A stretch of 39,647 bases of DNA from a virus (lineage: Duplodnaviria > Heunggongvirae > Uroviricota > Caudoviricetes): IMG/VR virus record IMGVR_UViG_2718218399_000002; one strand, given 5' to 3'. Below, piece after piece: positions 3,001 to 6,000 of the stretch. The position numbers were made by a program. Position 1 is the first letter of the stretch. Every line of letters begins with the position of its first letter.

Positions 3001-6000
3001 AAATCACGACAGATACAGATACAGATAAAGAATTAAACCCCACACATAACGCGCGCATGCGCGAGAGTGCTACGACCGGTGAGTTGAATGACGCGTCGTT
3101 GCAGACAGCCGAACCTGAATACCTGGACGGCCTGAGCGAACCGATCGGGAAATTTCCGATGACTGGAGTCTGGCAACCGTCGCCGGATTTTCGACAGCGG
3201 GCAGCAGTGTGGGGTATGGCTCTGCCTGAGCCTGAGTTTACACCTGCTGAGCTTGCCGCATTCCGGGATTACTGGATGGCGGAGGGGAAGGTTTTCACGC
3301 AGGTTCAGTGGGAGCAGAAATTTGCCCGTCACGTGCAGCACGTCAGGGCACAGGTAAAACCAGTCAGCAAGGGGGTAAGCCATGCAGCACCAGGTGGCAC
3401 CGCATCACGGGCAGTTCAGGAAATTCGGGCAGCACGTGAACAGTGGGAACGTGAAAACGGATTTATCAGCAACGGAAACGGCCTGGAAGCTGTGGGAACT
3501 TATGGGGGAGGTGTATTCGAACCGCTGGACCCAGAAGAACGGGGCTGCGCCGTCGAAGCTCTGGATTGCTCAGATTGGCGCGATGACTGAACAGCAAATC
3601 CGGCAGGTCTGCCGTCAGTGCATGGACCGCTGCCGGGCGGGTGAAACGTGGCCTCCGGATCTGGCTGAGTTTGTGGCGTTGATTTCGGAGAGCGGGGCAA
3701 ATCCATTTGGCCTGACGGTGGATGCCGTGATGGAGGAGTACCGTCGCTGGAGGAATGAATCCTGGCGGTACGACGGGAGTGATAAATACCCGTGGCCACA
3801 GCCGGTGCTGTACCACATTTGCCTCGAGATGCGTTCAAAGGGGATTGAGCGCCAGATGACCGAAGGGGAGTTAAAACGGCTTGTGGAAAGGCAGCTGACG
3901 AAATGGGCAAAGCATGTTGGTAATGGCCTCAGTGTTCCGCCAGTCCGGCGACAACTGGCAGCACCCAAACGCCCGCCAGGGCCAACGCCAATTGAATTGC
4001 TGAAACAGGAATATGAGCGCCGGAAGGCGGCCGGTTTTGTCTGAGTTGAGAAGTAATTTTTACCGGGAGGAAAATTTAATGGAAACCGTTTTTGACGCAC
4101 TGAAAGCACTGAAAAAAGCCTCGTCGCACGAGATTGCAGCCCGTCTTGAAATCAGCCGTGACGATGCTGTTACCGAACTCTGGAAGCTGAAGCGTCGTGG
4201 CGAAGCTGATAACAAGGGGTCGATGTGGTGGCTGACGAGTGAGGCAACTGAAGCGGCCCCAAAAACCACTGCAGAGATGCTGATTAACGCGATTGAACAG
4301 CATGGTCCTCAGTCGGCTGACGAACTGGCGTTAATGTTCGGGATTACCTCCCGCCGGGCGAATTCATCACTGGCGATGGCTGTCAGCAAAGGTCGTCTGA
4401 TTCGCGTAAATCAGGACGGTAAATATCGTTACTGCATACCGGGCGATAATTTACCGGCAGAGCCGAAAGCTGCATCGGTAACGGAAACCGATGGTAAAGC
4501 CTTTCCTCAGCCGGCAGGTGTTGCGTTACCAGTCCGGGAAGCGGAAACACAGGAAGAAATTAAAACTGAAAGTGTGGCGGTCACAGTGCAGTCACAGTCG
4601 TCGTTCATCAGAAAGCATCCGGATGGTCTGATTTTACCATCGCTGCATGTGGCTAACCGCGAGCTGCGCCGGGCAAAAGGTCAGGTTCAGAAGTGGGAGC
4701 GCTTATGCGCCGCGCTGCGGGAAATTAATAAGCATCGTGATGTCATACAGAAAATAACGACAGGAGATAACGGGTAATTTTTACAGCAGGGTGATGATAT
4801 GAAAATCAGATATCATGATTTCGGCCCCGTGTCACATATGCTTATTTCAAGTACGGTGCTGGAAACAAGAAAACATAATCACATACTGGATATGCTGCGT
4901 CTTGCTGACCCGTATCTGGTAATAAACACCAGTGGAATTTTCTTTCTGAGAAGCACTGTGTCAGGAAAAACATCGCATGTGCTTCGGGCATATAAAACAG
5001 CAGTGCGGGAGGAAGGAGAATGAGCGAGATTAACTATCAGGAGCTGCGTGTTGAGCTGGGAGCAGCAAAAAAACGCATAGAAGAGCTGGAGGCTAATCGT
5101 GTGGTGCTTGAGGTGGAAAATGAGAGGTTGAAACACGCAATGGCCGTAGCCCTTGAGCATATATCCGTCACAGATGCAGGACAGGCAGGTGTCGCTGCAA
5201 TGATTATCTATGATGCCATGTACCACAGTGAAAAAACTGACCCCTACGCTTTTCTGGCAGAATTGCGGGCGCAGGGTGTGGAGATGGTGCGCGAACATCC
5301 AGCAATCAAACTTTGCTCTTTGACGCACATATGTGACGAGTTAGTCGCAGAGCTTCGCAAAGGAGGCAACAAGTGAGTAAAACGAATCCGGGCTGGGCAA
5401 GGCCACTTATGGCGAAAAAACATCATTATTTTGCTGAAGGTGAAATAACAAGTATTTGCGGTGGGTGGATGTATTTTGGCAATGAGCGTGAGCCGGATAC
5501 ATTCGAAAGTCCAGATGATTGTAAAAAGTGTCGTAGAAAATTAAATAAGGGGGGTAAATGAGCGTAATTAAAGAAATGCCAGTGGAACGTAATGAATATG
5601 GCTGCTGGACGCATCCTGAATATGAAAAATTCTGTGATGGTCGGGAATATATTTCAACGGAAGAGTTTAACGCCTGGATGGAGAAAAATAATCTTCAGTG
5701 GGCTATCCGTAGTATGGATGAAGATGATTTTAATCTGGACGCAGATGGCCCTGATATTTCAGCATGGGAACCTGAGCGACCAGAAGGTGAGGGATGGTTT
5801 ATCGGTTCGATACATGACACCGAAGATGGTCCTGTTTGTGTATGGCTGAGAAATAAGGCCGAAGCATAAAGGCTATAAACCAACAACTAAACACTGAAAA
5901 TTTAAATCAGAAATGATTTTTATTAAATCCTTAACCGGAGGGATTCCTGCACCCTCAGAACATCAGGAGACCGCCCGAAAGGGCGGTAGTGAAAAATGAC

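What the first reader, a model, noticed from the sequence alone, without database searches (positions are those of the whole stretch)
3382..3590. About 200 nt where the O-like and P-like ORFs are both open in different frames
The O-like frame runs to 3590 while the P-like frame is open from 3382, and both translations look protein-like over part of the overlap. The +1 frame relationship would need two single-base losses or a genuine overlap with an internal P start near 3502. Several G runs (3371-3375, 3503-3507 and others) lie in the interval, so the true ends of both proteins are uncertain.
Basis: partly seen in the sequence, partly recalled or inferred. Interest (0 to 1): 0.4.

Follow-up and report, generated by a model that had tools for sequence, protein, structure and literature searches.

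The report
Conserved 209-base initiator/helicase-loader gene overlap
In this E. coli O157 prophage the gene for the helicase loader (P-like) most likely starts 209 bases inside the gene for the replication initiator (O-like) in a different reading frame; the arrangement is conserved across enteric bacteria, and standard annotation misses it by cutting 67 residues off the loader.

Summary
The O-like ORF (2547-3590) and the P-like ORF (3382-4044) are both open over 3382-3590, with P in the +1 frame. It is not a sequencing error. The sequence is 100% identical in many independent O157 genomes. In 27 non-redundant loci from about 20 enterobacterial genera, both frames stay open over a 161-227 nt overlap in the same phase. 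The P start is most likely ATG 3382, not 3502 or the RefSeq start 3583. It has by far the strongest Shine-Dalgarno (AAGGGGGT, -11.8 kcal/mol), and SD+ATG is conserved in every locus inside an otherwise variable O linker. Invariant P residues (R48 W49 K52 N53 G54 P57 W61) lie upstream of 3583, and the 220-aa form matches full-length lambda P in length and fold. Constraint is partitioned. Bases 3382-3467 evolve as O codons and encode a variable, predicted-disordered P N-terminus. Bases 3468-3590 evolve as P codons and encode an acidic, glycine-rich O tail. Both frames are kept free of stops far beyond chance. The tail+P block is joined to at least four different initiator bodies. This is an ordinary O/P replication module with an unusual, conserved long overlap and a systematic annotation error. 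Interest is moderate.

The parts
2547..3590 (+). O-like replication initiator gene. RefSeq starts it at ATG 2553. It has a DnaT-like domain at aa 203-269 and iterons inside the gene.
   Evidence: ORF; Pfam DnaT PF17948, E 1.4e-17; RefSeq CDS WP_001262409.1 'DnaT-like ssDNA-binding domain-containing protein'; iterons.
3382..4044 (+). P-like helicase loader gene, long form, 220 aa (the proposed true gene).
   Evidence: ORF; Pfam Phage_lambda_P, 59.9 bits; 215-223-aa homologues in many genera; AF2 model plus Foldseek best hit to full-length lambda P 9oa1.
3369..3376 (+). Shine-Dalgarno sequence AAGGGGGT for the P-like gene, 5 nt before ATG 3382. Its last base is the first base of the P-frame TAA stop (3376-3378).
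   Evidence: Duplex with the anti-SD is -11.8 kcal/mol, the best of all candidate starts. A GGAGG/GGGGG core lies 4-9 nt upstream of the ATG in nearly all of the 27 loci. The local RNA is less structured than shuffles, z = +1.75.
3382..3590 (+). Dual-coding overlap, 209 nt. It holds O codons 279-347 plus the stop, and P codons 1-70.
   Evidence: overlap of 161-227 nt, always P = O+1, in 27 loci.
3382..3467 (+). O-dominated part of the overlap. It encodes the conserved O segment SRAVQEIRAAREQWERENG and the variable, predicted-disordered P residues 1-29.
   Evidence: O third positions are the most variable and O synonymous fraction is normal (0.49-0.56). P amino-acid identity is 0.21-0.30. pLDDT is below 50 for P residues 1-28.
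3468..3590 (+). P-dominated part of the overlap. It encodes P residues 30-69 (AWKLWELMGEVYSNRWTQKNG..., the first helices of the P domain) and the acidic, Gly-rich last 40 aa of O.
   Evidence: O synonymous fraction collapses to 0.10-0.20 and O first positions (= P third positions) are the most variable. P shows a normal coding pattern. Invariant P residues 48-61. O tail net charge is -1 to -8 across loci, and -8 in the window.
3583..3585 (+). ATG used as the P start by RefSeq/GenBank (153-aa form). Probably just internal Met68.
   Evidence: Annotations. SD is -3.1 kcal/mol. This codon is not a start codon in 7 of 27 loci. Invariant residues lie upstream.
3502..3504 (+).
   Evidence: 177-192-aa forms. 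SD is -4.2 kcal/mol. ATG in 25 of 27 loci and CTG in 2. The conserved AWxxW motif lies upstream.

Best explanation
This is a genuine, evolutionarily conserved, same-strand gene overlap inside a lambda-type O/P replication module of a Rac-like prophage of E. coli O157:H7. The P-like helicase loader is translated from its own strong ribosome-binding site (AAGGGGGT-N5-ATG 3382). That site lies inside a variable linker of the O-like initiator gene, 209 nt before the O stop codon, in the +1 frame. The product is a 220-aa protein with the same layout as lambda P: a disordered N-terminal segment of about 30 aa followed by helical domains. The shared DNA is divided between the two genes. Its first ~86 nt are constrained as O codons, covering a conserved O segment, with the floppy P N-terminus free-riding on them. 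Its last ~123 nt are constrained as P codons, covering the first helices of the P domain, with an acidic Gly/Asp/Glu-rich 40-aa O tail free-riding. Both frames are nevertheless kept free of stops. Because the last ~70 aa of O and the first ~70 aa of P use the same nucleotides, this block is inherited as one unit. It is found joined to several unrelated initiator bodies. Shown here: the ORFs, conservation of the frames, conservation of the SD and ATG, the partition of constraint, and the similarity to lambda P. Inferred: that ATG 3382 is the start used in vivo, and that the O tail has a function. By analogy with lambda, where the O C-terminus binds the P N-terminal part, that function would plausibly be docking of P.
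For: Both ORFs are present. The window is 100% identical to many complete O157:H7 genomes. 27 non-redundant loci from Escherichia, Citrobacter, Enterobacter, Klebsiella, Salmonella, Pectobacterium, Serratia, Yersinia, Erwinia, Rahnella and others keep an overlap of 161-227 nt with P = O+1. SD plus ATG is conserved at the same place in all of them although the flanks vary. In several loci it is the only start codon upstream of the conserved AWxxW motif. The P alignment shows invariant R48 W49 K52 N53 G54 P57 W61 upstream of the annotated start. Codon-position analysis shows the switch from O-type to P-type constraint near nt 3468. Off-frame stops occur at 0.042-0.052 per codon outside the overlap and never inside it. 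Resampling gives 0.24 and 0.04. The HMM alignment puts profile position 69 at lambda P residue 81, so the long form matches the 233-aa lambda P. AF2 predicts residues 1-28 disordered and a helix at 27-53. Foldseek's best hits are lambda P chains aligned over 198-219 columns. Lambda P domain I (residues 1-29) is a disordered lasso and domain II spans ~30-119 (PMC12661323). The RNA around the start is unstructured. The initiator bodies are mosaic, carrying DUF1376, DnaT, Phage_rep_O or no Pfam domain, and for L025/L028 homology to the window's O begins 8 aa before the P ATG.
Against: There is no direct evidence of translation initiation at 3382 (no proteomics or ribosome profiling). P residues 1-29 show no amino-acid conservation (identity 0.21-0.30), so their only signature is the maintained open frame plus SD/ATG. 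P(P frame open | O protein) is not small for a single sequence (mean 0.24). The O tail adds only marginal extra constraint on P synonymous sites (0.534 against 0.576, p about 0.06). Its sequence conservation is therefore mostly a by-product of P, and its function is unproven. All RefSeq/PGAP records call the 153-aa form. The 27 loci are phylogenetically related, so the per-locus probabilities cannot simply be multiplied. AF2 confidence for residues 30-110 is only moderate (pLDDT 63-73).
Confidence: 0.85

Rival explanations
1. P starts at ATG 3502 (Met41), giving a ~180-aa protein and an 89-nt overlap. The frame upstream is open only by chance.
For: Met41 is ATG in 25 of 27 loci. Many database entries are 177-192-aa forms starting here. 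P residues 1-29 are not conserved.
Against: The SD is weak (-4.2 kcal/mol against -11.8). The conserved AWxxW motif and P-type codon constraint begin about 10 codons upstream. Two of 27 loci have CTG here. A conserved SD+ATG 120 nt upstream would be left unexplained. The product would lack the equivalent of lambda P domain I and the start of domain II.
Confidence: 0.07
2. The public annotation is right: P starts at ATG 3583 (153 aa, 8-nt overlap ATGACTGA).
For: All RefSeq and most GenBank records annotate it this way. A short overlap is the usual arrangement, and lambda O/P overlap by 4 nt.
Against: Seven invariant residues and about 37 conserved codons under P-type selection lie upstream. The codon is not a start codon in 7 of 27 loci. 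The SD is -3.1 kcal/mol. The product would begin at the equivalent of lambda P residue ~80, in the middle of domain II. Studies of overlap length exclude overlaps of 60 bp or more as likely misannotations (PMC3887535), and, from my own knowledge, gene callers penalise long overlaps. This explains the annotation bias.
Confidence: 0.02
3. The overlap is an artefact: sequencing indels at G runs, or a decaying pseudogene whose true O and P frames have been shifted.
For: There are homopolymer G runs at 3371-3375 and 3504-3508.
Against: The sequence is identical in many independent complete genomes. 72 of 80 viral contigs show the same overlap behind an O frame open for at least 250 aa, and 5 more show it behind a shorter O-frame stretch. 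The same frame relationship holds in about 20 genera with different sequence at those runs.
Confidence: 0.01
4. Several P isoforms are made: the 220-aa form from ATG 3382 plus shorter forms from Met41 and/or Met68. This would be comparable to other phage genes with dual starts.
For: Met41 is nearly invariant as ATG. Met68 is ATG in 20 of 27 loci. Lambda P N-terminal fragments have distinct phenotypes (PMC6022878).
Against: Neither internal ATG has a good SD. A conserved Met can be structural. There are no data on protein products.
Confidence: 0.1
5. A programmed +1 ribosomal frameshift in the overlap makes an O-P fusion protein.
For: P is in the +1 frame of O and there are G-rich runs in the overlap.
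Against: P has its own conserved SD+ATG. No conserved slippery or stall motif was noticed. The overlap sequence varies freely at synonymous sites of whichever frame dominates.
Confidence: 0.02

Closest known systems
Bacteriophage lambda O-P replication module (O initiator with ori iterons inside the gene; P helicase loader)
   Same: The gene order is the same, with the initiator directly followed by the loader. Iterons lie inside the initiator gene. P belongs to Pfam Phage_lambda_P and its model matches full-length lambda P. It has a similar length (220 against 233 aa) and a disordered N-terminus of about 30 aa like lambda P domain I. Exchange is modular, with the ori-specific N-terminal half of O swapped between relatives (homology to other phages starts at about window position 3011-3027).
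   Different: Lambda O and P overlap by only 4 nt (ATGA), whereas here they overlap by 209 nt in the other phase. The initiator here has a DnaT-like domain and no Phage_rep_O domain. P is only distantly related to lambda P (HMM E about 1e-6, aligned from residue 69 onward).
Rac prophage ydaU-ydaV region (Rac-SA53, PPompW prophages of STEC)
   Same: These are 88-90% identical over the C-terminal half of O plus P, with the same neighbours (ydaS/ydaT-like, DUF1627). They have the same 212-nt overlap.
   Different: In those records P is annotated as 153 or 140 aa. E. coli K-12-type Rac carries a DnaC-like ATPase (ydaV) instead of a P-like loader, with no long overlap.
Long same-strand overlapping genes created by overprinting (viral and prokaryotic 'phase 1' overlaps)
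   Same: The overlap is out of frame and same-strand, in the phase that is typical of long overlaps. One frame dominates the constraint at each position, and the free-riding segments are disordered or low-complexity (background from PMC3887535).
   Different: Neither partner is a novel orphan protein. Two well-known replication genes have extended into each other, and constraint switches from one frame to the other in the middle of the overlap.

Membership tests
Phage_lambda_P (PF06992) helicase loaders | Significant match to the family profile above the curated threshold | tested here: met
   59.9 bits against a cut-off of 26, E 3.4e-16, residues 55-187. The PDB profile search hits lambda P 8v9t/8v9s at E about 1e-6.
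Phage_lambda_P (PF06992) helicase loaders | Fold and domain layout of lambda P: disordered N-terminal lasso, two helical domains, C-terminal lasso | tested here: met
   AF2 predicts residues 1-28 disordered and helices from residue 27 to 180. Foldseek's top hits are 9oa1 lambda P chains at probability 1.00, aligned over 198-219 columns. The layout is taken from PMC12661323. Model confidence is moderate (mean pLDDT 71).
Phage_lambda_P (PF06992) helicase loaders | Binds host DnaB and the cognate initiator | not testable with these tools
   Needs biochemistry or a multimer structure prediction.
Lambda O-type initiators (Phage_rep_O, PF04492) | N-terminal Phage_rep_O DNA-binding domain | tested here: not met
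   The window's O-like protein matches only the DnaT domain. One relative (L022) does carry Phage_rep_O in front of the same tail. The window protein works like O but is not a member of this Pfam family.
Lambda O-type initiators (Phage_rep_O, PF04492) | Iterons (ori) inside its own coding sequence | tested here: met
   There are two clusters of GTCACG repeats at 10-nt spacing, at 2681-2740 and 2962-3011.
Genuine dual-coding (overlapping) gene pair | Both frames open, in the same phase, in diverged homologues | tested here: met
   27 of 27 non-redundant loci, with overlap of 161-227 nt. Stop density outside the overlap is 0.042-0.052 per codon.
Genuine dual-coding (overlapping) gene pair | Conserved translation-initiation signals for the downstream gene inside the upstream gene | tested here: met
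   An SD core lies 4-9 nt before a conserved ATG in the 27 loci.
Genuine dual-coding (overlapping) gene pair | Purifying selection on both frames at the same nucleotides | tested here: inconclusive
   Constraint is partitioned rather than simultaneous. Extra suppression of P synonymous change in the overlap is marginal (0.534 against 0.576, p about 0.06). Only stop avoidance is clearly shared.
Genuine dual-coding (overlapping) gene pair | Both products detected experimentally | not testable with these tools
   No expression data were available. The literature searches found nothing on this locus.
Frameshifted pseudogene / sequencing artefact | Frame relationship differs between assemblies or relatives | tested here: not met

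The most novel reading that the evidence does not exclude
The ~210-nt overlap may be a portable docking cassette. The last ~70 aa of the initiator (a conserved segment plus an acidic tail) and the first ~70 aa of the helicase loader are the two partners of the O-P contact, and they are written in the same nucleotides. Recombination therefore cannot separate a loader from the initiator tail that recruits it, and any initiator body that recombines in-frame just upstream of the P start acquires a matched P-docking tail. This would be a mechanistic reason for a long gene overlap (enforced co-inheritance of an interface) rather than genome compression.
Probability: 0.3. Interest if true: 0.6.

Novelty: new variant of a known kind. 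Interest (0 to 1): 0.4.

Why it matters
In practice, RefSeq/PGAP and most GenBank records annotate this widespread loader as 153 aa (1,332 of 5,426 complete E. coli genomes hold a match to the region). That form lacks 67 N-terminal residues, including seven invariant ones. Anyone cloning, modelling or classifying these loaders from the annotation would work with a truncated protein. Conceptually, this is a clean, deeply conserved example of a long same-strand overlap between two well-understood essential phage genes. It shows a sharp hand-over of selective constraint from one frame to the other, and its upstream partners are mosaic. It offers a tractable system for asking why long overlaps persist: single silent-in-one-frame mutations can separate the two genes. 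It does not reveal a new kind of system.

Tried and rejected
1. The viral-contig scan returned only relatives at 95-100% identity. It confirmed sequence accuracy but added no diversity.

2. I tried to model the O C-terminal region with an alignment built from fetched loci.

3. Two P-like genes have no upstream initiator (L032 and L040, both Erwinia, next to host-like genes). I considered them as overlap-free controls for the true N-terminus. They do start upstream of AWxxW, but they look like prophage remnants, so I gave them little weight.

4. The K-12-type Rac region has a different initiator and a DnaC-like loader, so it is not informative for the tail.

5. Literature searches for ydaU/ydaV, for O/P overlap and for DnaT with replication protein P found no description of this overlap.

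6. I rejected an RNA-structure explanation for conservation around the start, because the region folds less well than shuffled sequences.

7. I considered a frameshift-fusion reading and set it aside, because P has its own conserved start signals.
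Full report
**Where the window comes from and what the genes are**

The window is 100% identical over 3000-4100 to a prophage of E. coli O157:H7 (EDL933 and many other complete genomes). The neighbourhood is Rac-like/lambdoid:
- a LexA-family repressor on the minus strand,
- a Cro/CI-type regulator,
- a YdaT-family gene,
- the O-like gene,
- the P-like gene,
- a DUF1627 gene.

The O-like ORF (2547..3590, 347 aa) has a DnaT DNA-binding domain at residues 203-269. It also carries two clusters of GTCACG iterons at 10-nt spacing inside the gene. The P-like ORF (3382..4044, 220 aa) matches Pfam Phage_lambda_P.

**The observation**

Both ORFs are open over 3382-3590 (209 nt), and P is in the +1 frame of O. 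A TAA at 3376-3378 closes the P frame just upstream, so ATG 3382 is the first possible start.

**It is not an error**

- Identical sequence occurs in many independent complete genomes.
- 72 of 80 viral contigs show a 209- or 212-nt overlap behind an O frame open for at least 250 aa. Five more show the 212-nt overlap behind a shorter O-frame stretch, and three could not be scored.
- Phage records at 88-90% identity have the same two long ORFs.
- A scan of one genome per species returned 37 loci. In every one that carries an upstream initiator gene, the P frame is +1 relative to a 300-390-aa upstream ORF, and the overlap is 161-227 nt.
- After removing near-duplicates, this leaves 27 loci from Escherichia, Citrobacter, Enterobacter, Klebsiella, Salmonella, Kluyvera, Pluralibacter, Phytobacter, Pectobacterium, Serratia, Rahnella, Rouxiella, Yersinia, Erwinia, Buttiauxella, Samsonia and others. 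P identity to the window falls to about 45%.

**Is it more than chance?**

Outside the overlap, the P frame inside O carries 0.042 stops per codon and the O frame inside P carries 0.052. A 69-codon open run is therefore expected in about 5% and 2.5% of sequences. The overlap has no stop in either frame in any of the 27 loci.

I also resampled synonymous codons using each locus's own codon usage:
- Holding the O protein fixed, the P frame stays open in 24% of resamplings on average.
- Holding the P protein fixed, the O frame stays open to its observed stop in only 4% on average (range 0.2-9%).

The loci are related, so these values cannot simply be multiplied. However, third-position divergence of about 0.5 between them shows ample turnover.

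**Where P starts**

Public annotation (RefSeq PGAP and most GenBank records) starts P at ATG 3583, giving 153 aa and an 8-nt overlap. Some records use even later starts. Other database entries are ~180-aa forms starting at Met41, or 215-223-aa forms.

Alignment of 34 homologues at 46-97% identity shows invariant R48, W49, K52, N53, G54, P57 and W61, plus a conserved AWxxWxxM motif at residues 36-41. All of these lie upstream of Met68.

At the DNA level:

| Candidate start | Start codon in the 27 loci | Anti-SD duplex (kcal/mol) |
|---|---|---|
| ATG 3382 | start chosen by SD and position in each locus | -11.8 |
| ATG 3502 (Met41) | ATG in 25, CTG in 2 | -4.2 |
| ATG 3583 (Met68) | ATG in 20, non-start codon in 7 | -3.1 |
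| in-frame GTGs | not scored | -2.8 to -4.3 |

ATG 3382 is preceded by AAGGGGGT with a 5-nt spacer. In all 27 loci an ATG at the equivalent position is preceded by a purine-rich SD core (GGAGG, GGGGG or a near variant) 4-9 nt upstream, although the surrounding bases are not conserved. In several loci it is the only ATG/GTG/TTG upstream of the AWxxW motif. These signals even leave an imprint on the O protein: in O's otherwise variable linker, the recurring 'GG..(H/N)(A/V)' residues are encoded by the SD and the ATG. The RNA around the start is less structured than shuffled controls (z = +1.75).

**Comparison with lambda P**

A profile of the family aligns to lambda P from profile position 69 to lambda residue 81. 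The 220-aa form therefore matches the 233-aa lambda P in length, while the 153-aa form would begin in the middle of lambda P domain II.

The AF2 model (mean pLDDT 71) has residues 1-28 disordered and a long helix at 27-53, followed by further helices. Foldseek's best hits are lambda P chains from the DnaB-lambda P complex, aligned over 198-219 columns at probability 1.00.

The lambda P structure paper describes domain I (residues 1-29) as an intrinsically disordered N-terminal lasso, and domain II as residues ~30-119 (PMC12661323). This is the layout predicted here. Lambda O and P themselves overlap by only 4 nt.

**How the shared DNA is used**

Codon-position divergence across the 27 loci shows a sharp hand-over of constraint.

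In O coordinates:
- Third positions are the most variable, and the synonymous fraction is normal (0.49-0.56), up to about residue 307.
- From residue 308 to the end, the synonymous fraction falls to 0.10-0.20, and first positions (which are P third positions) become the most variable.

In P coordinates:
- Residues 1-30 show amino-acid identity of 0.21-0.30, with P second positions (which are O third positions) the most variable.
- From residue 31 onward the normal coding pattern holds.

The switch is therefore at about nt 3468. Upstream of it the DNA encodes the conserved O segment SRAVQEIRAAREQWERENG together with a sequence-unconstrained P N-terminus. Downstream of it the DNA encodes the first P helices together with a 40-aa O tail.

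That O tail is Gly/Asp/Glu-rich, with a net charge typically -6 to -8. Its sequence conservation (for example EPLDxEE) is largely forced by the invariant P residues. Extra suppression of P synonymous change in the overlap is marginal (0.534 against 0.576, p about 0.06). Selection on the tail is therefore visible mainly as stop avoidance.

**Mosaic context**

The upstream initiators differ between loci:
- DUF1376 plus DnaT,
- DnaT with an unrecognised N-terminus (the window),
- Phage_rep_O,
- DUF1376 without DnaT,
- no Pfam domain at all.

All of them end in the same segment-plus-tail that overlaps P. For the Buttiauxella and Dryocola loci (L025, L028), similarity to the window's O starts at O residue 271, 8 residues before the P ATG. 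Among close relatives, DNA homology starts at about window position 3011-3027, just after the second iteron cluster. This is the lambda-like pattern in which the ori-specific half of the initiator is exchanged.

In lambda, the O C-terminal region is the P-binding part, and N-terminal portions of P interfere with O function (PMC6022878). It is therefore plausible, though an inference only, that the overlap encodes the two sides of the O-P contact and keeps them linked during modular exchange.

**Known or new?**

I found no paper describing this overlap. Overlaps of 60 bp or more are usually treated as misannotations and excluded from overlap-length studies (PMC3887535). From my own knowledge, common gene callers also penalise them. 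This explains why P is systematically truncated in annotation, although 221-aa versions do exist in GenBank.

The genes belong to known families and the module works like lambda O/P. The new elements are the conserved long overlap, the partition of constraint within it, and the annotation correction. I rate this a new variant of a known kind, of moderate interest.

**Limits**

There are no expression data. Use of ATG 3382 in vivo and any function of the O tail are both inferred. Two single-base mutations would separate the genes cleanly:
- T3383C is silent in O and kills the P start.
- G3507T is silent in P and truncates O by 27 aa.

Noticed in passing
window 2681-2740 and 2962-3011: There are two clusters of GTCACG(A) repeats at 10-nt spacing inside the O-like gene (about 6 and 5 copies), followed by ACAGATA repeats at 3009-3031. 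They look like the iterons of the prophage replication origin. DNA homology to other Rac-like phages begins right after the second cluster.
   Followed up: partly
window 2547-2555: The O-like ORF can start at GTG 2547 (as listed by the ORF tool) or at ATG 2553 (the RefSeq choice). I did not resolve which is used.
   Followed up: no
L032 2926-3552 and L040 2971-3540: Two Erwinia genomes carry intact P-like ORFs (208 and 189 aa) with no initiator gene upstream. By my own recognition of the ORF translations, they sit next to a TtcA-like gene and a PTS-transporter-like gene. They are probably leftovers of a degraded prophage, and it is unexplained why P alone stays intact.
   Followed up: partly
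L003 (PP818812.1, 'Actinobacillus phage vB_Apl-pPE4'): A phage record attributed to Actinobacillus pleuropneumoniae is about 90% identical at the DNA level to this E. coli prophage replication region. This is unexpected for a Pasteurellaceae host and may reflect an E. coli prophage contaminant or a host misassignment.
   Followed up: no
L039 3186-3647 and L043 3109-3351: The P-like genes in Leclercia adecarboxylata NCTC13032 and in a Symbiopectobacterium genome are interrupted upstream of the WPPDLAEF motif, so they are probably pseudogenes. They were excluded from the statistics.
   Followed up: no
window 4013-4078: The frame of the DUF1627 gene is open from ATG 4013, inside the end of the P gene, although RefSeq starts it at ATG 4079 (window coordinates). 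The same extended ORF is present in L001 and L003. I did not examine whether it is another under-called 5' extension or just an open frame.
   Followed up: no
L044 (E. coli RM9513, K-12-type Rac): At the same position, between ydaT and the DUF1627 gene, this Rac variant carries an unrelated 262-aa initiator and a DnaC-like ATPase (ydaV) with no long overlap. The whole initiator-plus-loader pair is therefore exchanged as a unit between Rac-like prophages.
   Followed up: partly
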